Source: a virus (Duplodnaviria > Heunggongvirae > Uroviricota > Caudoviricetes). Taken from it: a stretch of 5,745 bases of DNA. Shown here in pieces: positions 485 through 5,419 of this stretch (position 1 is its first letter; every line of letters starts with the position of its first letter). The notes under the pieces were generated by a model that was given only the letters and a program-made list of their open reading frames with translations, did no database searches and was not told the DNA's origin. Both the position numbers and the translations under genes were made by a program. The DNA lies in the IMG/VR virus record IMGVR_UViG_2623620497_000001, positions 1-5,745 of that record. One strand, 5' to 3'.

Positions 485-2577
485 CCTCCGGAAGTCAGCC
501 AGGGGTTAACATCGTCAGTTACTGTTTTCTTCCGTTTTTGTTTTTTAACAGGCGTGGATACCGGCTCCGGTGAGGGTGACGGTTCGGTACTGTCCGGGAC
601 ACACTCCAGCCAGGTTTCCCGGCTCGCCCACTCCGGTGCATCCGGCCAGCGGATCTTTTCGTATCCATGCAGAATGACCAGCGCCTCGGCATACACCATC
701 AGGTCAAAAGCTTCGTTGGCACCGCGACCCGGCTTACTCCATTTCCCGTCACTGCTCCGCTCTTCATACGTCAGTTCGTCGTAAAACCAGCTCCCCAGCC
801 AGTCAGGGAAATGCACATAGCCTGGACCTGGCGAGTCACGCCATAACGCGTTATTCACCCGGTCTTTCAGGGCATCCGTCTGAAGAAGCCAGAGCGGCAC
901 ATCACCTGCGGCCTGCGCCCGGCGGCCCGTTCGTCCGGTGTTATCAGGGAATGTACGGCTGATCAGTTTTGCGCGCCGGATGCTGTCGCCCTTAAACAGG
1001 TAAATACGTTTACCAAGGCCATCACGACGGCAACGACGCCAGAATTTATAGGCATTATCAGTGACCCCGTCTTCACCGCCGGAATCCACCGCCATTGCCA
1101 TCAGTCGCATTTGTTGAGAAGGATCGGAGGCCAGCGGCCAGCTTTTATGAAAAACATCCGTCAGCAGGACATCCCAGTCTTCCGGATAGCTGGCCGGATC
1201 AATTCGCTGGCTCTCCCCGTCGCTGTCACCGCGCAATGACTGCGTGATGTTGTAACGATCAATAATCCAGCGTTCGCCACGGCTGCCATAGCCCGTTACC
1301 TGAACCACAAAACGGCGATGACGTCCCGCCTGCACATCAACTGTCGCCACCAGGAAATTAACGCCATCCGGCACACTGCGGGAAGGAACTGGCTCTGCCC
1401 GCTGCTCAAGCAGTTCACTTTTTCGTTGCTCCATGCTGGCACGGGGAAGATAAGGTAATCCCCAGTCGGTATTGATAACCGTCTTGAGTGTTTCTTCACT
1501 TCCGGTTGTCTCGTATTCCTGTTCTGCAGTAAGCAGTTTGTAAACGAGTTGCGAGAGTGTCTGGTAAGCAGCTGCCGGACCCTCCATCCAGAATGACGCA
1601 ATACGTGAGCGTCGGGGATCACCATAACGACTGCCATCCGCATTGATGGATTCACCATCCCGCAACCAGACCCCACGTCCGTTCAGCTCACGTTTTTGTT
1701 CAGGCATAATCCGTCCTGAACAGGAAGGACACTGAATATAAGCCGCCTCACTTGCCAGCACGGGATCGGCAATATCACGGAAACCAGCAACCACATCGCC
1801 GCAGGGCTGAAAATACTCACCACAGTGTGGACAGGGCCAGTACCAGCGACGGCGATCGCCACGGTTATAGAGCGACAGTATCCCCGTGGTTGGTGGAGCC
1901 TCATGCGGTGAAGTCCGTCGCCATTTCACATCCTTCACATCCCTGCCGGGGGAACTCTCCACCAGCGTCATACCACTGGACATAAATGTGGTGGTACGTT
2001 TTGAGGCAAGAGAGAAGGCATCCCCCTCGCCATCAATATCTTCCGGAAAACGGTCATAATCCGTCAGCGCCACGCATTTATAATCTGATGAGGACATGAT
2101 ATTGACTGACGGCCAGCCGATTTTCAGGTAGTTGCCAGCAAGGAATGTTCTGTCATAAACGTTGTTGTCATTTTTGTTCGGACTCAGGCGACTGACCACT
2201 TCCGGGCTGACGCGAAACGTTCTGGCAAGTCGTTTTTTGGAGTGTTCGCGGGCTTTTTCCTCCGTCATCTGAATGATCAGCATATCAGCAGGATCGCAAA
2301 TCACATTGTAAATCACCCAGCCGTCAATCAGGCCGATAGTCTTGCCAGTTCGTGCCGGGCCAACAAATATCACTGCGTCGTATTCACGCGAGGCCAGGCA
2401 GTTCATCGGCTCAATAACATACGGTGCCACCAGCGGATCCCACGGGACTGAATTCCCGGCCCCCATGGGCACCCGCATATACTGAGCAACGGCATCAGCA
2501 ACCAGCATTCGTCTCGGTGCGCGAAGGATATAACCTGAATCGGTTCGTGCTGCCTTTGCGGTTTCCTGATTCAGCAT
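475..2577 (-). CDS. Terminase large subunit, lambda GpA family
   Basis: 700-aa ORF with a Walker A-like P-loop VGPARTGKT near the N-terminus and a CPHCGEYF motif resembling CPHCGEEQ of lambda gpA. Its ATG shares a base with the stop of the upstream small-subunit gene (TAATG at 2575-2579). Confidence 0.9.
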   Translation of the reverse strand: MLNQETAKAARTDSGYILRAPRRMLVADAVAQYMRVPMGAGNSVPWDPLVAPYVIEPMNCLASREYDAVIFVGPARTGKTIGLIDGWVIYNVICDPADMLIIQMTEEKAREHSKKRLARTFRVSPEVVSRLSPNKNDNNVYDRTFLAGNYLKIGWPSVNIMSSSDYKCVALTDYDRFPEDIDGEGDAFSLASKRTTTFMSSGMTLVESSPGRDVKDVKWRRTSPHEAPPTTGILSLYNRGDRRRWYWPCPHCGEYFQPCGDVVAGFRDIADPVLASEAAYIQCPSCSGRIMPEQKRELNGRGVWLRDGESINADGSRYGDPRRSRIASFWMEGPAAAYQTLSQLVYKLLTAEQEYETTGSEETLKTVINTDWGLPYLPRASMEQRKSELLEQRAEPVPSRSVPDGVNFLVATVDVQAGRHRRFVVQVTGYGSRGERWIIDRYNITQSLRGDSDGESQRIDPASYPEDWDVLLTDVFHKSWPLASDPSQQMRLMAMAVDSGGEDGVTDNAYKFWRRCRRDGLGKRIYLFKGDSIRRAKLISRTFPDNTGRTGRRAQAAGDVPLWLLQTDALKDRVNNALWRDSPGPGYVHFPDWLGSWFYDELTYEERSSDGKWSKPGRGANEAFDLMVYAEALVILHGYEKIRWPDAPEWASRETWLECVPDSTEPSPSPEPVSTPVKKQKRKKTVTDDVNPWLTSGGWL

Positions 2578-3068
2578 TACTCCTCCTGCTGTAATTCCTC
2601 CTCATCATCCGCACCTGCTTCGGTCACCCGCAGGGCTATCTGATCGCGCAGATCATCAATAATGGACTGAACACGGCTCACAGCGGCAGGCTGCAGGCCG
2701 CAGTCACGTTCCAGAATATCCGGTAATGTCTCCAGCACCTGCACGACCGCTTTTGCCCAGATGGCAAACTCCCGTCTGACATCACTGGCCGGAATGAGTT
2801 GTGCCGTTTCCTGTTCGAACTTAAGACGCTCACGTTCAGACTGATACCAGGCTTTGCGTTCATGTGGATCCATTTCGCCCTCAGCAACCGGCGGTGGTAA
2901 CCCCATAAATTCAGTCAGAATATCGGTCAACCGATATAGCTTGAGTTTGTCATGTCCACCAGCGGGACGAATGTTTTTCAGTCTTGCCACGACAGTCTGG
3001 CGGTGCAGACCAGATAAAGCCGCCAGTTGATTAATATTCAGCACCAAGTTTTTCAACTCATGATCCAT
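2577..3068 (-). CDS. Terminase small subunit, Nu1-like (N-terminal helix-turn-helix)
   Basis: 163-aa ORF directly upstream of and coupled to the large terminase. The N-terminus (LVLNINQLAALSGLHRQTVVARLKNI) has an HTH-like pattern as in lambda Nu1, and the C-terminus is acidic. A GGAGG Shine-Dalgarno lies 4 nt upstream of the ATG at 3068. Confidence 0.8.
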   Translation of the reverse strand: MDHELKNLVLNINQLAALSGLHRQTVVARLKNIRPAGGHDKLKLYRLTDILTEFMGLPPPVAEGEMDPHERKAWYQSERERLKFEQETAQLIPASDVRREFAIWAKAVVQVLETLPDILERDCGLQPAAVSRVQSIIDDLRDQIALRVTEAGADDEEELQQEE

Positions 3069-3123
3069 ATTTCCTCCGGAGAGCTTTAAACATGCATCGT
3101 GCGAACAACTTTAAGAAAACGCG

Positions 3124-3157
3124 TTCGATGTCGAACAAAAACCGCTCAATTCGACAT
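3124..3157. promoter_or_regulatory. Putative cosB-type terminase/IHF binding repeats
   Basis: ATGTCGAA (3128-3135) and TTCGACAT (3150-3157) form a perfect 8-bp inverted repeat with a 14-bp spacer. A third TTCGA half-site is at 3124-3128 and A-tracts follow. It lies between the putative cosN and the small terminase start, where lambda has its R elements and IHF site. Confidence 0.3.
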
Positions 3158-3230
3158 ACAAAAAACAAATAACCATTAATAATCAATAAGATGCAAAGAT
3201 GATGGTGGCCGATAAAAATGCAAAAACTAG

Positions 3231-3262
3231 CCTTTTTCCGCGACGCTCCCGCCCCGTGGTAG
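3231..3262 (-). other. Putative cosN (cohesive-end nicking site)
   Basis: Minus-strand 5'-CACGGGGCGGGAGCGTCGCGGAAAAAGG-3' resembles, from memory, the lambda cos junction ...ACG|GGGCGGCGACCTCGCGGG... . The presumed nick is about 186 nt upstream of the small terminase ATG, close to the roughly 190 nt I recall for lambda Nu1. Confidence 0.35.
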
Positions 3263-3362
3263 GCAACCCCGCCGGGAGGACCCATAAGAAAACACAGGTC
3301 CGACCGCCGTTTTGAATTCTCTTCTAAACGACTCTAGTTTGATTTGAGTATGCAATACGCGT

Positions 3363-3387
3363 AAAAAAGCCCCGCATAGGCGAGGCT
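3363..3387 (-). terminator. Rho-independent terminator downstream of the peptidase gene
   Basis: Minus-strand 5'-AGCCUCGC CUAU GCGGGGCU UUUUUU-3': an 8-bp GC-rich stem with one G-U wobble, a 4-nt loop and a run of six U. It starts 18 nt after the TAA stop at 3408-3406. Confidence 0.6.
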
Positions 3388-3405
3388 GGAATCAGACAGG
3401 GGGGA

Positions 3406-4308
3406 TTAAGACTGGATATTCCAAATCATTGCGTTACCGTTATGATTTTCAATGATTTTTGCCAGTGGTGCTCCACCAAAAGAATGCATGTAGCTGTGAT
3501 GTATAGTCAAAACCAAATCTTGAAGTACTTGATCACTTTCAAGTTCGGTAACATTCAACCCAATTTTCTGCGCCTTATCAAAATGAATATGACGCGAGTG
3601 GGTATAGGTTGTGTGATGGTTGTTTAACTCTGAACAAACATGTGTTGCTTTTGATTCTGCCTCAGGATCATTATCAAACATGCCTGTCATAAGCCAATGC
3701 TTAACAATCTCATTTGCCCATTTGATTGCTTTCTCACACTCGCCGATGATCGTCGGGTTTAGCTTTTGAAGAATGAACTGCCACATCTGAACAGCTGCGG
3801 GATTTTGAAAAATTTCCGTCTGCGCACGATTCCATTCTTCAATGATGGCATGGGTGGAGAAACCGTTGAACTGAGGATCAATTGGGCCAATGTTGGACTG
3901 TTTACCCATGATGATTTCATTGGCACAACATGCAAGCATAGTTCCGCAGGACATTGAAATCATAGGAACAATTGCTCTGATGTTAGTTCCAAACTTCGAC
4001 CTTAAGTAATGCCCGATTGATTCCAAAGCGGCAATATCACCACCTGGAGTATGAAGTATCAAATCCAACCCTTTTGATACATCTAAACCATTGATGGCTG
4101 TCATCAACCCGTTCTTATCATCATCAGTCATCTGAGTAAGATGGCGTACTTCTGCACCACCATGCTGTAACCACCCTGAGTAATATGTGATTACATTTCT
4201 TCCAGTATGATTCGAAAGTTGAGATAAGTATTTACGGCGAACCTCATCCATAGGACTTTTATGGGCGAGAGCCGTTATCTCGCCCAGTACGTCGCTCCAA
4301 TTAGGCAT
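3406..4308 (-). CDS. ClpP/crotonase-fold serine peptidase, SDH (serine dehydrogenase proteinase)-like
   Basis: 300-aa ORF. The segment DLILHTPGGDIAALESIGHYLRSKFGTNIRAIVPMISMSCGTMLACCANEIIMGK aligns by eye with the ClpP core (..[48 protein letters not shown]..), placing a Ser at the nucleophile position. The gene sits in an AT-rich block unlike the flanking phage genes. Its ATG (4308-4306) is 3 nt after the stop of the upstream small ORF and has no Shine-Dalgarno of its own, implying translational coupling. Confidence 0.7.
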   Translation of the reverse strand: MPNWSDVLGEITALAHKSPMDEVRRKYLSQLSNHTGRNVITYYSGWLQHGGAEVRHLTQMTDDDKNGLMTAINGLDVSKGLDLILHTPGGDIAALESIGHYLRSKFGTNIRAIVPMISMSCGTMLACCANEIIMGKQSNIGPIDPQFNGFSTHAIIEEWNRAQTEIFQNPAAVQMWQFILQKLNPTIIGECEKAIKWANEIVKHWLMTGMFDNDPEAESKATHVCSELNNHHTTYTHSRHIHFDKAQKIGLNVTELESDQVLQDLVLTIHHSYMHSFGGAPLAKIIENHNGNAMIWNIQS

Positions 4309-4311
4309 AAA

Positions 4312-4512
4312 TCAGTACGTGTAAAGTTGATGACTTGTAGTTTGGTTTTGCTTCGATTGTGTAGCGGTACCTTGTGAGTACCAAACACCTGTGTTTCCAC
4401 TCGTACTAGTTTGCTGTGCCATTACACGAGAAGCGAAGTTGTTAACAGTTTCACCAGTCAACATTTCTGCCGGTTTGATATTGTAAACATCGTAGAACTC
4501 AGCTGGGGTCAT
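4312..4512 (-). CDS. Small hypothetical protein (66 aa) with polar low-complexity C-terminal tail; first gene of the moron operon
   Basis: ATG at 4512-4510 is preceded by AAGGAG with an 8-nt spacer. The C-terminal half is rich in Q/T/S/N (QQTSTSGNTGVWYSQGTATQSKQNQTTSHQLYTY). It is tightly linked to the peptidase gene. No family was recognised. Confidence 0.55.
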   Translation of the reverse strand: MTPAEFYDVYNIKPAEMLTGETVNNFASRVMAQQTSTSGNTGVWYSQGTATQSKQNQTTSHQLYTY

Positions 4513-4520
4513 AATGATAG

Positions 4521-4600
4521 CTCCTTTTATAGCGCTACATATAGTGCCTGTGCTAAGGGGGACATACTATATGTGCCATTGTTGTCATATTTAAATGTGC
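4521..4600 (-). promoter_or_regulatory. Putative promoter/operator region of the moron operon
   Basis: AT-rich leader immediately upstream of the small ORF. A candidate -10 TATAGT (minus strand) has a weak -35-like TTAAAT 17 nt upstream. A perfect 9-bp inverted repeat ACATATAGT (4537-4545) / ACTATATGT (4566-4574) overlaps the region. Promoter assignment is tentative. Confidence 0.3.
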
Positions 4601-4621
4601 AAAAAGCCTCAAAAGAGGCTT
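4598..4621 (-). terminator. Hairpin with U-tract (weak intrinsic terminator or insulator) upstream of the moron
   Basis: Minus-strand 5'-AAGCCUC UUUU GAGGCUU UUUG-3': a 7-bp stem, 4-nt loop and five U counting the last two stem bases. The plus-strand version is followed by GAAAAAG, so it would act only on the minus strand. Confidence 0.35.
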
Positions 4622-4882
4622 GAAAAAGATGCAAAAATACTATCTATGACGTGACTATAGCTACTTACCCACAGTTTATACAAGCCAAAAATGCTAAATT
4701 CAGATAATCCTATTCGCTGAAAAACTACACAAAAGCTACGTTCATCTTGTCATTAGATAACGTCAGTAACTTTCACTAGATCTAAGCCATTGGTGAAAAA
4801 GCTAATTGCATGATGAAGCACTGTAATGTAGCAGTTGAGGTTGTTAAATGAGAATCACCCTAACAATGTCAACGGACATTAT

Positions 4883-5419
4883 TCATTTTCGTAACTTCTC
4901 AATCTCTCGTATACCCGCCAGGTTATTGTTGCCCTTCTCAATAACAGCCAGCAAAGGTTCAATCCAGAGGACGGCCTGGCAATACGTCATTGAGCTGGCG
5001 GCAGCGGTACTATCATCGGTTGCGTTAGTGTTCCCGGTATCGGGGTGCATTGCGCTGGCACGTAAACGGTACGCGTATTTGAGCAGCCCACCAGCGACAT
5101 CAGCAGGAACAGGCAGATCACAGGTCTTTTCACGTCGGAGAATCTCCCGGTATTCGATGACAGTTTTCTCAGTACCGGCATCGATCAGCGAGTTAAGGCG
5201 GTTGGCGTTCTCTGCTATCTGGTTAAACCGATTGAAGTTGAAAGCCTGTGTAGTTATCACCGTCGCCTGCAGCGCGTTATCATTACGTAATACCCGATTC
5301 TCACTCTGTTCTGTTTCAAGAGCTGAGCGGCTACGAACCAGTAATACGCTAAGCACTGCAATAATGATTACGACAGCCACCAGCAGAACCGCAACAATCG
5401 TAATTTTTCTGGGTTTCAT
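4883..5419 (-). CDS. Rz: Rz-like i-spanin (type II inner-membrane lysis protein)
   Basis: 178-aa ORF whose ATG shares a base with the endolysin TGA stop (TGATG at 5417-5421). It has an N-terminal transmembrane segment (ITIVAVLLVAVVIIIAVLSVLLV) followed by a charged periplasmic domain, and it contains an embedded out-of-frame lipoprotein ORF. Confidence 0.75.
   Translation of the reverse strand: MKPRKITIVAVLLVAVVIIIAVLSVLLVRSRSALETEQSENRVLRNDNALQATVITTQAFNFNRFNQIAENANRLNSLIDAGTEKTVIEYREILRREKTCDLPVPADVAGGLLKYAYRLRASAMHPDTGNTNATDDSTAAASSMTYCQAVLWIEPLLAVIEKGNNNLAGIREIEKLRK
4987..5181 (-). CDS. Rz1: Rz1-like o-spanin lipoprotein embedded in Rz in another frame; true start probably the internal GTG near 5133
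   Basis: The ORF lies entirely inside Rz in a different frame. It has a lipoprotein signal with lipobox (VKRPVICLFLLMSLVG|C) followed by a short proline-rich mature part (CSNTRTVYVPAQCTPIPGTLTQPMIVPLPPAQ), which is the classic Rz1 signature. Confidence 0.6.
   Translation of the reverse strand: MPVLRKLSSNTGRFSDVKRPVICLFLLMSLVGCSNTRTVYVPAQCTPIPGTLTQPMIVPLPPAQ

What the first reader, a model, noticed from the sequence alone, without database searches (positions are those of the whole stretch)
3406..4308. Peptidase has a ClpP-like nucleophile region but apparently not the ClpP His position
Aligned by eye, HTPGGD...PMISMSCG matches the ClpP SPGG...AASMG region, so a nucleophilic Ser is likely. 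Where ClpP has the catalytic His (MIHQP), this protein reads IDPQ. That suggests a different catalytic arrangement, such as a Ser/Lys dyad as in S49 SppA or a His supplied from the C-terminal region (for example THSRHIHFD). The roughly 130-aa C-terminal extension has no ClpP counterpart and could be a regulatory or target-recognition domain.
Basis: partly seen in the sequence, partly recalled or inferred. Interest (0 to 1): 0.5.

Follow-up and report, generated by a model that had tools for sequence, protein, structure and literature searches.

The report
Phage-carried ClpP-fold protease, reordered Ser-Asp-His triad
This prophage cargo gene encodes a ClpP-shaped serine protease whose His and Asp sit in swapped sequence order, which is the known hallmark of the uncharacterised "SDH" family; the less ordinary point is that it travels with a conserved, unannotated small partner gene.

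Summary
ORF 3406-4308 (minus strand, 300 aa) aligns to ClpP and to the archaeal 1510-N protease across TPGG and the nucleophile Ser120. It has no His where ClpP has one.

This is the defining trait of Pfam PF01972, "ClpP-like SDH-type serine proteinase" (81 bits, cutoff 31). RefSeq already gives the protein that name.

Across 271 homologues and 10 distant members (24-46% identity), the only catalytic-type residues that persist are Ser120, Asp144 (GP-I-D-PQ) and His237 (T-H-S-R). Lys136, the position of the 1510-N lysine, His86, His240 and His270/271 all vary. A Ser/Lys dyad is therefore not supported.

The gene is a low-GC cassette sitting between the lysis and terminase genes. A conserved 66-aa ORF (4312-4512), unannotated in RefSeq, lies directly upstream. 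The same pair recurs across many bacterial phyla, and this is the more interesting lead. Triad geometry and function were not tested.

The parts
3406..4308 (-). CDS for a 300-aa SDH-type ClpP-fold serine protease (the finding)
4039..4044 (-). Codons for Gly89-Gly90 of TPGG, the counterpart of the ClpP oxyanion-hole loop
   Evidence: 261/263 homologues and 10/10 distant members keep GG. The motif aligns to S/TPGG of ClpP and 1510-N.
3949..3951 (-). Codon for Ser120, the proposed nucleophile (M-S-C-G-T)
   Evidence: Conserved in 270/271 homologues and 10/10 distant members. Aligned to the ClpP Ser and to 1510-N Ser97. It sits at the N-terminus of helix 121-127, after a strand.
3877..3879 (-). 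Codon for Asp144 (G-P-I-D-P-Q), the proposed triad acid, at or next to the sequence position of the ClpP His
   Evidence: Conserved in 263/269 homologues and 10/10 distant members. Its spacing from the Ser is 24 residues, against 25 in ClpP.
3598..3600 (-). Codon for His237 (T-H-S-R), the proposed general base
   Evidence: Conserved in 252/256 homologues and 10/10 distant members. A low-confidence hhalign tail places it one residue before the ClpP catalytic Asp (precursor D185), anchored on the shared A-x-x-x-G-L motif.
3619..3855 (-). Helical insertion (aa 152-230, four helices) at the position of the ClpP handle
   Evidence: DSSP assigns helices 152-168, 170-180, 187-210 and 217-228. ClpP chains of about 180 aa align over only 173 of the 300 residues. 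The placement relative to ClpP is inferred.
3409..3531 (-). C-terminal helix plus beta-hairpin (aa 260-300), beyond the ClpP core and specific to this subfamily
   Evidence: DSSP assigns H260-279, E282-288 and E293-297. K284 and N288 are conserved within the subfamily, but the region is absent or unalignable in the Shinella, Thermus and E. coli phage-plasmid members.
4312..4512 (-). Conserved 66-aa partner ORF that stops 3 nt before the protease ATG (TGA TTT ATG)
   Evidence: ORF; RBS 'aaaggag' and the junction. Matches phrog_25714 at 4e-44. An equivalent ORF was found in 76 of 85 loci; 47 of these form one phmmer cluster, and most stop 29 nt inside to 15 nt before the protease start. Motif-wise conservation is seen in 8 close homologues. 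It is not annotated in the RefSeq record.
3368..3387 (-). Intrinsic terminator directly after the protease gene
   Evidence: 8-bp stem with 6 GC pairs, followed by a T-run.
4566..4595 (-). Sigma-70-like promoter candidate upstream of the small ORF (weak evidence)
   Evidence: TTTAAA-18-TATAGT matches 9 of 12 positions. The number of such sites in the region is no higher than in shuffled sequence.

Best explanation
The gene encodes a soluble serine protease with the ClpP fold that does not depend on ATP. It belongs to the PF01972 'SDH' family. Its catalytic residues come in the order Ser120, Asp144, His237, whereas ClpP has Ser, His, Asp. Ser120 sits at the conserved nucleophile position, with the TPGG loop opposite it. 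Asp144 occupies roughly the sequence slot of the ClpP His. His237 comes from the segment that supplies the Asp in ClpP.

The gene is not part of the phage's head-assembly machinery. It is the second gene of a self-contained, low-GC, two-gene cargo cassette (a 'moron') inserted between the lysis genes and the terminase genes of a lambdoid E. coli prophage.

The first gene encodes a fast-evolving 66-aa protein with two short helices. Its C-terminal half is predicted to be disordered yet carries conserved motifs (GVWYSQGTA and C-terminal QLYTY).

I infer that the small protein is the protease's dedicated substrate or a pseudo-substrate regulator, binding as an extended strand in the active-site groove. 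I also infer that the pair acts as an autonomous conflict module (toxin-antitoxin-like or anti-phage) expressed from the lysogen.

Shown here: family membership, fold, residue conservation, cassette structure, and pairing across phyla.

Inferred: triad geometry, the physical link between the two proteins, and the biological role.
For: Family and fold:
- PF01972 scores above its cutoff.
- The AF2 model has pLDDT 95.4 and pTM 0.92.

Triad:
- S120, D144 and H237, plus G89-G90, are the only catalytic-type columns kept in both the 271 homologues and the 10 members at 24-46% identity from plasmids and phages.
- S120 aligns to the ClpP and 1510-N nucleophile.
- H237 lies next to the ClpP Asp column.

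Cassette:
- GC is 0.40-0.43, against 0.53-0.58 in the terminase genes.
- A strong terminator follows the protease.
- The closely related phage PhiR40_1 has the same terminase genes but lacks the cassette.
- In other Enterobacterales, the same two genes sit between the Q antiterminator and the holin.
- The pair also occurs in a Mu-like Shewanella phage and in Porphyromonas phages; a Gordonia phage carries the protease, with no upstream ORF annotated.
- It occurs next to integrases or a resolvase.

Pairing:
- 76 of 85 loci from many phyla have a small same-strand ORF ending near the protease start (most stop 29 nt inside to 15 nt before it); 47 of these form one sequence cluster.
- The partner diverges faster than the protease: 47% against 74% identity, and 32% against 67%.
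- Its substitutions avoid the motifs.
- The C-terminal half is predicted to be disordered.

Autonomy and conflict role:
- The immediate neighbours are otherwise unconserved. Integrase is the commonest family at 5 of 110.
- Roughly 8 of 110 neighbours match defence proteins strongly, including retron RT-protease, PD-T4-6, type I and IIG restriction-modification components, PDC-S33 and PDC-M24B.

Precedent (from my own knowledge, not checked here): the 1510-N/NfeD protease cleaves its operon partner, stomatin.
Against: - No coordinates were available from the model, so the distances between Ser, His and Asp were never measured. A simple positional swap of His and Asp in the ClpP geometry would not by itself give a working relay.
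- The ClpP alignment is confident only for aa 73-129.
- PADLOC has no model for either protein, and no paper on this family's function was found.
- Nine of 85 loci show no small upstream ORF.
- The defence-neighbour count has no matched background.
- The promoter call is no better than chance, so expression in the lysogen is assumed.
- The protein scores far below the NCBIfam SDH equivalog cutoff (95.9 against 250), so it is a separate subfamily whose activity has never been tested.
Confidence: 0.6

Rival explanations
1. It is an S49-type (SppA / 1510-N-like) peptidase that uses a Ser/Lys dyad, with Lys136 or another lysine as the general base.
Against: K136 falls to 208/270 in the wider set and is K in only 1 of 7 distant members. 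The column matching 1510-N Lys138 is variable. The SppA_dom score of 16 bits is far below its cutoff of 155. K284 is conserved only within the subfamily and lies in a tail that other PF01972 members lack. By contrast, D144 and H237 are kept family-wide.
Confidence: 0.1
2. It is the phage's own head-maturation (prohead) protease, like lambda gpC or other ClpP-related prohead proteases, because it lies beside the terminase genes.
For: There are weak matches to head-maturation protease models (NF045542 E=3e-4; phrog_53 E=6e-5). The gene is close to the packaging genes.
Against: The scores are far below cutoff (20.9 against 120). The gene lies upstream of the small terminase subunit in a low-GC unit with its own terminator. 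It is absent from phage PhiR40_1, whose small-terminase start and upstream region (window 3000-3283) are 97.5% identical and which has the same terminase gene order. The same cassette sits at a different site (between Q and holin) in other prophages. It also sits next to housekeeping genes in chromosomes of many phyla. The near-identical E. coli locus shows a separate prohead protease/capsid fusion gene, which lies in an adjacent integrase-bearing insertion rather than in the prophage's own head genes.
Confidence: 0.04
3. It is a catalytically inert ClpP/crotonase-fold scaffold, or a CoA-type enzyme rather than a peptidase.
Against: All the top structural matches are peptidases, and they outrank the crotonases. 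The Ser sits exactly on the peptidase nucleophile column. Ser, Asp and His are near-invariant across very distant members, which fits catalysis better than a scaffold role.
Confidence: 0.06
4. The small upstream ORF is not a protein partner. It is a leader or regulatory ORF, or a gene-calling artefact, and the protease acts alone on host or phage targets.
For: RefSeq does not annotate it. It has no Pfam or NCBIfam family. Only 10 homologues were found by single-sequence search. Nine of 85 loci lack it.
Against: Protein-level similarity links 47 upstream ORFs from different phyla. A seed HMM built from 11 of these ORFs scores the seed members at E 1e-18 to 1e-27 and recovers further loci outside the seed (L016, L013, L008 at about 1e-21 to 1e-23; L021 at 2e-16). 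Substitutions among close homologues spare three motifs and pile up in the linkers. It has its own PHROG family. Distant PF01972 members also carry an adjacent small Ser/Thr-rich ORF with a similar aromatic-Tyr-Ser/Thr motif, but downstream.
Confidence: 0.15

Closest known systems
Pfam PF01972 / NCBIfam NF047768 'SDH family Clp fold serine proteinase' (formerly DUF114, 'serine dehydrogenase proteinase')
   Same: It scores above the Pfam gathering cutoff and has the ClpP fold. It has the Ser, Asp, His order with the family motifs x-S-[AG]-G-T, G-P-[IV]-D-P-Q and [ST]-H-x-[RY]. RefSeq uses this name for the protein.
   Different: It scores 95.9 bits against the 250-bit cutoff of the NCBIfam equivalog, so it forms a distinct subfamily of about 300 aa. 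That subfamily has an invariant MP[NS]W N-terminus, a longer helical insertion, an extra C-terminal helix-hairpin, and a conserved small upstream partner gene. The family's triad is a sequence-based prediction. I found no solved structure and no biochemistry.
ClpP (MEROPS S14)
   Different: There is no His at the ClpP His position, and a His lies next to the ClpP Asp position. The ClpP handle is replaced by a helical bundle of about 80 aa. No ClpX/ClpA-type partner gene is present. Sequence identity is about 11-16%.
1510-N / NfeD membrane protease (PH1510) and SppA (MEROPS S49)
   Different: Those enzymes use a Ser/Lys dyad, and the equivalent Lys column is not conserved here. This protein has no membrane segment and no SPFH/stomatin partner, and its SppA model score is far below cutoff.
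Prophage 'morons' such as lambda bor or stx
   Same: It is a low-GC unit with its own terminator, inserted at the two classic cargo sites of lambdoid late regions: Rz to terminase here, and Q to holin in relatives.
   Different: The cargo is an uncharacterised protease plus a small protein, not a known virulence or exclusion gene.

Membership tests
PF01972 SDH-type ClpP-like serine proteinase | Score above the curated Pfam gathering threshold | tested here: met
   81.2 bits against 31.3; aa 22-255 match profile positions 35-246 of 286
PF01972 SDH-type ClpP-like serine proteinase | ClpP/crotonase fold | tested here: met
PF01972 SDH-type ClpP-like serine proteinase | Conserved Ser, Asp and His in that sequence order | tested here: met
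   S120 270/271, D144 263/269, H237 252/256, and each 10/10 in distant members
PF01972 SDH-type ClpP-like serine proteinase | Ser, His and Asp within hydrogen-bonding geometry; peptidase activity | not testable with these tools
   Model coordinates are not exposed. No solved structure of the family was found.
NCBIfam NF047768 Clp_like_SDH (equivalog) | Score above the equivalog cutoff of 250 bits | tested here: not met
   95.9 bits. It is related but a different subfamily.
ClpP, MEROPS S14 | Catalytic His about 25 residues after the Ser, and Asp in the C-terminal segment (Ser-His-Asp order) | tested here: not met
   No His occurs between aa 121 and 152. D144/P145 occupy that spacing. His237 falls next to the ClpP Asp column. 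PF00574 is not among the Pfam hits.
SppA / 1510-N, MEROPS S49 | Ser/Lys catalytic dyad with a conserved Lys | tested here: not met
   The column equivalent to 1510-N Lys138 is variable. K136 is 208/270 and is K in only 1 of 7 distant members. SppA_dom scores 16 bits against a cutoff of 155.
ClpP-related phage head-maturation protease | Model score above cutoff, and position within the head-gene module after the portal gene | tested here: not met
   NF045542 scores 20.9 against 120. The gene lies upstream of the small terminase subunit in a separable cassette.
Known anti-phage defence systems (PADLOC-DB 2.0) | Match to any defence-protein model | tested here: not met
   No hit at E<=0.1 for the protease or the small protein

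The most novel reading that the evidence does not exclude
The 66-aa protein and the SDH protease form a previously undescribed, self-contained two-gene conflict module (toxin-antitoxin-like or abortive-infection). It would be spread by horizontal transfer through many bacterial phyla and carried as cargo by temperate phages. In this reading the disordered small protein acts as a pseudo-substrate lock or sensor, and its loss releases an ATP-independent ClpP-fold protease that has a reordered triad.
Probability: 0.25. Interest if true: 0.7.

Novelty: new member of a known kind. Interest (0 to 1): 0.4.

Why it matters
The catalytic oddity that prompted the finding is already captured in the family's name, so on that point the result is ordinary.

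Three things are still open:

1. The PF01972 family is large. A profile search found 6,666 representatives at 50% clustering with E<=0.001. Yet I found no solved structure and no biochemistry, so the Ser-Asp-His relay on a ClpP scaffold remains a prediction worth testing.
2. This subfamily stays about 50% identical from Enterobacteria to Nitrospinae, Bacteroidales, Actinomycetota and a methanogen bin. It sits in prophage cargo sites or next to integrases, which is the signature of a mobile, selfish or defensive module.
3. It is nearly always paired with a small gene. That gene is missing from the RefSeq annotation examined here, and it is a natural candidate for the protease's substrate or regulator.

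A short cloning experiment could show whether this is a new protease-based toxin-antitoxin or anti-phage system.

Tried and rejected
- Measuring the Ser, His and Asp distances directly was not possible. The model is kept remotely and no coordinates appear in /data.
- hhalign of the family against a single ClpP sequence gave only a 34-column match. An 81-sequence ClpP profile, built from viral-contig hits, raised this to 70% probability, but still only over aa 73-129. Forced global or low-MAC alignments disagree in the middle region. One of them puts K136 on the ClpP His, which I rejected because it needs a 9-residue gap through a strand that the 1510-N alignment places differently, and because K136 is not conserved.
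- The sequence search of the PDB found no family member.
- The AFDB Foldseek library was unavailable.
- Eight literature searches (PF01972, DUF114, 'serine dehydrogenase proteinase', 'SDH family Clp fold', S49 with anti-phage, ClpP-like with defence, and others) found nothing on function.
- There are no tRNA or Rfam elements in the window.
- I considered and rejected H86, H240 and H270/271 as the catalytic His, because they are not kept in distant members.
- I considered and rejected a third conserved partner gene, because the neighbours are heterogeneous.

Full report
**1. What is in the window**

All genes run on the minus strand. In order of transcription they are:
- the C-terminal part of a lysozyme gene (to 5419);
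- a 178-aa spanin-like gene (4883-5419);
- a 66-aa ORF (4312-4512);
- the 300-aa ORF of the finding (3406-4308);
- a DUF1441 small-terminase-like gene (2577-3068);
- a gpA-type large terminase (475-2577);
- a small head-tail-type ORF (266-484).

GC content is 0.40-0.43 across 3250-4750, against 0.53-0.58 in the terminase genes. A 99.9%-identical stretch lies in a lambdoid prophage of E. coli UK_Dog_Liverpool. There RefSeq names the protein 'SDH family Clp fold serine proteinase' (WP_001568787.1) and annotates nothing at the position of the 66-aa ORF. Only 42 of 5,426 complete E. coli genomes carry at least 80% of the 1.9-kb region.

**2. Checking the observation**

A profile of 28 homologues hits S. 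pneumoniae ClpP (E=5.5e-5) and the P. horikoshii 1510-N protease (E=0.014). TPGG falls on S/TPGG, and the Ser of M-S-x-G-T falls on the catalytic Ser. In the 1510-N S97A mutant entry, the changed residue lies in exactly that column.

hhalign against an 81-sequence ClpP profile gives 70% probability over aa 73-129 and pairs S120 with E. coli ClpP precursor Ser111. No confident ClpP alignment extends to the His. By spacing, however, the ClpP His corresponds to D144/P145 (25 residues from the Ser in ClpP, 24/25 here).

**3. Fold**

The protein is therefore a ClpP-fold peptidase, not a crotonase. No solved structure of its own family turned up in either the sequence search or the fold search.

**4. 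Which residues are catalytic**

I aligned 271 homologues to the family HMM. I added ten members taken from plasmids and phages at 24-46% identity. One search gives these counts:

| Residue | Homologues | Distant members |
|---|---|---|
| S120 | 270/271 | 10/10 |
| D144 | 263/269 | 10/10 |
| H237 | 252/256 | 10/10 |
| G89-G90 | 261/263 | 10/10 |

The other candidates do not hold up:
- K136 is K in 208/270 homologues and in 1 of the 7 most distant members (elsewhere E, D, Y or P).
- The column that matches the 1510-N catalytic Lys (around aa 161) reads R/K/Q/E/M/N.
- H86 becomes E, Y or I in distant members.
- H240, H270 and H271 are not kept.
- K284 lies in a tail that many members lack.

The family-wide motifs are x-S-[AG]-G-T, L-G-P-[IV]-D-P-Q and [ST]-H-x-[RY], with the last followed about 12 residues later by G-L. 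That is a Ser, Asp, His order, which is what the Pfam and NCBIfam names 'SDH-type' and 'SDH family' refer to. The meaning of the acronym is from my memory of the Pfam description.

A low-confidence extension of the profile alignment, anchored on the shared A-x-x-x-G-L motif, pairs H237 with ClpP R184 and S238 with the catalytic D185. In sequence terms, the His and Asp have exchanged places relative to ClpP.

I could not measure the geometry, because the model coordinates are not exposed. The triad is therefore well supported by conservation but not demonstrated.

**5. The 'C-terminal extension'**

PF01972 covers aa 22-255. The secondary-structure string has three parts:
- a ClpP-like alpha/beta core up to about aa 151;
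- four helices (152-168, 170-180, 187-210, 217-228) where ClpP has its handle, followed by the His loop, a strand, a helix and a strand (241-255) that match the last ClpP elements;
- an extra helix and beta-hairpin (260-297).

About 127 residues are indeed unmatched by ClpP. However, they form an internal insertion plus a tail of about 40 aa, not one C-terminal domain. This partition is inferred.

**6. Context: a two-gene cargo cassette**

The 66-aa ORF has a good ribosome-binding site. It stops 3 nt before the protease ATG. A strong intrinsic terminator follows the protease at 3387-3368. A promoter-like site lies at 4595-4566, though such sites are no commoner here than in shuffled sequence.

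Phage PhiR40_1 is 97.5% identical to the window over the small-terminase start and the region just upstream of it (window 3000-3283). It has the same terminase gene order but carries unrelated small ORFs in place of the cassette.

The same pair occurs elsewhere:
- In Enterobacter, Yersinia and Klebsiella prophages, a 64-67-aa ORF plus the protease (62-74% identical) sits between the Q antiterminator and the holin.
- In a Mu-like Shewanella phage and in Porphyromonas phages the protease follows a small annotated gene; a Gordonia phage carries the protease with no upstream ORF annotated.
- The protease also occurs next to an integrase in Pseudomonas and a resolvase in Methylomonas.

**7. The partner is conserved far beyond E. 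coli**

A scan of one genome per species returned 80 loci with proteases 49-55% identical to the query. They come from Nitrospinae, Paenibacillus, Bacteroidales, Planctomycetes, Actinomycetota, Chloroflexota, Saccharibacteria, a methanogen bin and many others.

In 76 of 85 loci, a 40-130-aa same-strand ORF ends near the protease start; most stop between 29 nt inside it and 15 nt before it. Of these, 47 fall into one phmmer cluster. Smaller clusters share the same layout.

The common features are:
- an N-terminal helix (E-I-x-x-[VI]-F-x-x-L-G-[IL]);
- a middle F-A-x-x-F-K-x-C-type segment;
- a hydrophobic-Tyr-Ser/Thr motif followed by a Ser/Thr/Asn-rich tail.

The enterobacterial versions end in L-Y-[ST]-Y. 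Among eight close homologues the substitutions avoid AEFY..Y.I.PA, NFA.RV, GVWYS.GTA and QLYTY, and they pile up in the linkers. The partner diverges much faster than the protease: 47% against 74%, and 32% against 67%. AlphaFold predicts two short helices and a low-confidence C-terminal half. Conserved motifs in a disordered region suggest that the region folds on binding.

Distant PF01972 members carry an adjacent small ORF downstream instead, with a similar aromatic-Tyr-Ser/Thr motif:
- E. coli phage-plasmid, FVVYTNRHTTT;
- Leptospira, SIRYSRIS;
- Chlorohelix, AFDYGNT.

**8. Neighbours**

I took the nearest large ORF on each side in the genome loci and scanned 110 of them. No third conserved partner appears. 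Integrase is the commonest family (5), followed by HEPN (2) and PLD-like (2). Restriction enzymes are also present, and the rest are housekeeping genes.

Against PADLOC, roughly eight neighbours match defence proteins strongly: retron RT-protease (two neighbours), PD-T4-6, a type I specificity subunit, a type IIG restriction-modification enzyme, PDC-S33, PDC-M24B and mad6. This is suggestive, but I have no matched background. Neither cassette protein matches any PADLOC model.

**9. Interpretation**

The protein is an SDH-type ClpP-fold serine protease. The most likely active site is S120, H237 and D144, with the TPGG loop contributing the oxyanion hole as in ClpP.

The 'His from the C-terminal region' idea passes and points to H237.

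Functionally, the gene is prophage cargo rather than head-assembly machinery. The tight, phylum-spanning pairing with a fast-evolving, partly disordered small protein argues for a dedicated protease-substrate or protease-inhibitor pair. So does the precedent of 1510-N cleaving its operon neighbour (my own knowledge). The patchy, mobile distribution fits a toxin-antitoxin-like or anti-phage role. Those last steps are inference only.

**10. Novelty**

The catalytic arrangement is already known as a prediction and is embedded in the family name. The window protein is a new, uncharacterised subfamily member: it falls below the NCBIfam equivalog cutoff. The conserved partner ORF, missing from the RefSeq annotation examined here, and the cassette behaviour are not described in anything I could find.

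Noticed in passing
window 4312-4512 (-): A 66-aa ORF lies directly upstream of the protease and is unannotated in the RefSeq copy. Equivalent small ORFs were found upstream of the protease in 76 of 85 loci from many phyla, most of them abutting or overlapping its start. The C-terminal half is predicted to be disordered but carries conserved motifs (GVWYSQGTA and C-terminal QLYTY).
   Followed up: yes
window 4309-4314 (-): The small ORF's stop codon and the protease start are in the same reading frame, separated by a single codon (TGA TTT ATG). Read-through of the TGA would fuse the two proteins. In other loci the junction ranges from a 29-nt overlap to a 15-nt gap, so this is probably incidental.
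   Followed up: no
window 4987-5181 (-) inside 4883-5419 (-): A 64-aa ORF with a lipobox-like 'LVGC' after a hydrophobic stretch is embedded out of frame in the 178-aa membrane-anchored ORF that follows the lysozyme gene. This looks like an Rz1-type o-spanin nested in an Rz-type i-spanin. Neither ORF has a significant Pfam hit.
   Followed up: no
window 3185-3226 and 4622-4638: 16-nt direct repeats (AAxAAGATGCAAAxAT, 88% identical) bracket the cassette. Homology to genomes that carry the cassette with a different neighbour starts at about 3222. Homology to phages that lack the cassette ends at about 3283. These may be the recombination joints of the moron, or the repeats may be a chance match.
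   Followed up: partly
window about 4600-4627 (-): A hairpin (AAGCCTC-TTTT-GAGGCTT followed by TTTT) lies between the end of the lysis genes and the promoter-like site of the cassette. It looks like a terminator, but the scanner did not call it because the T-run is too short.
   Followed up: no
L001 (NZ_CP031653.1) 1-8578: In the E. coli strain whose cassette is 99.9% identical, the large terminase gene is truncated by an inserted element that carries an integrase. That element also carries a primase, an Icd-like inhibitor, an SSB and a ClpP-like prohead protease/capsid fusion, so it looks like a phage satellite. The window itself has the intact 700-aa terminase.
   Followed up: no
L093 (Methylocystis bryophila plasmid NZ_AP027150.1) 1-3202: A distant SDH-family protease (S, D and H all kept) is the last gene of an operon. 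The genes before it are a multiubiquitin-domain protein, an E2/UBC, a ThiF-type E1 and DUF6527. Here the SDH protease may process or remove the ubiquitin-like protein.
   Followed up: no
L090 3489-3668; L094 3550-3735; L096 3660-3884: Distant PF01972 members (E. coli phage-plasmid, Leptospira plasmid, Chlorohelix plasmid) each have a 59-74-aa Ser/Thr/Asn-rich ORF immediately downstream of the protease. These ORFs carry aromatic-Tyr-Ser/Thr motifs like that of the upstream partner in this window.
   Followed up: partly
window 4297-4308 (-), aa 1-4 of the protease: The N-terminus M-P-[NS]-W is almost invariant across phyla (alignment A1). Such conservation is unusual for an N-terminus and hints at a functional role, such as gating, oligomer contact or processing.
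   Followed up: no
L091 (Shinella plasmid) 1557-3142: Another distant SDH-type protease overlaps the stop of a rhomboid-family intramembrane protease gene by 10 nt. This is a different, possibly membrane-associated, pairing.
   Followed up: no
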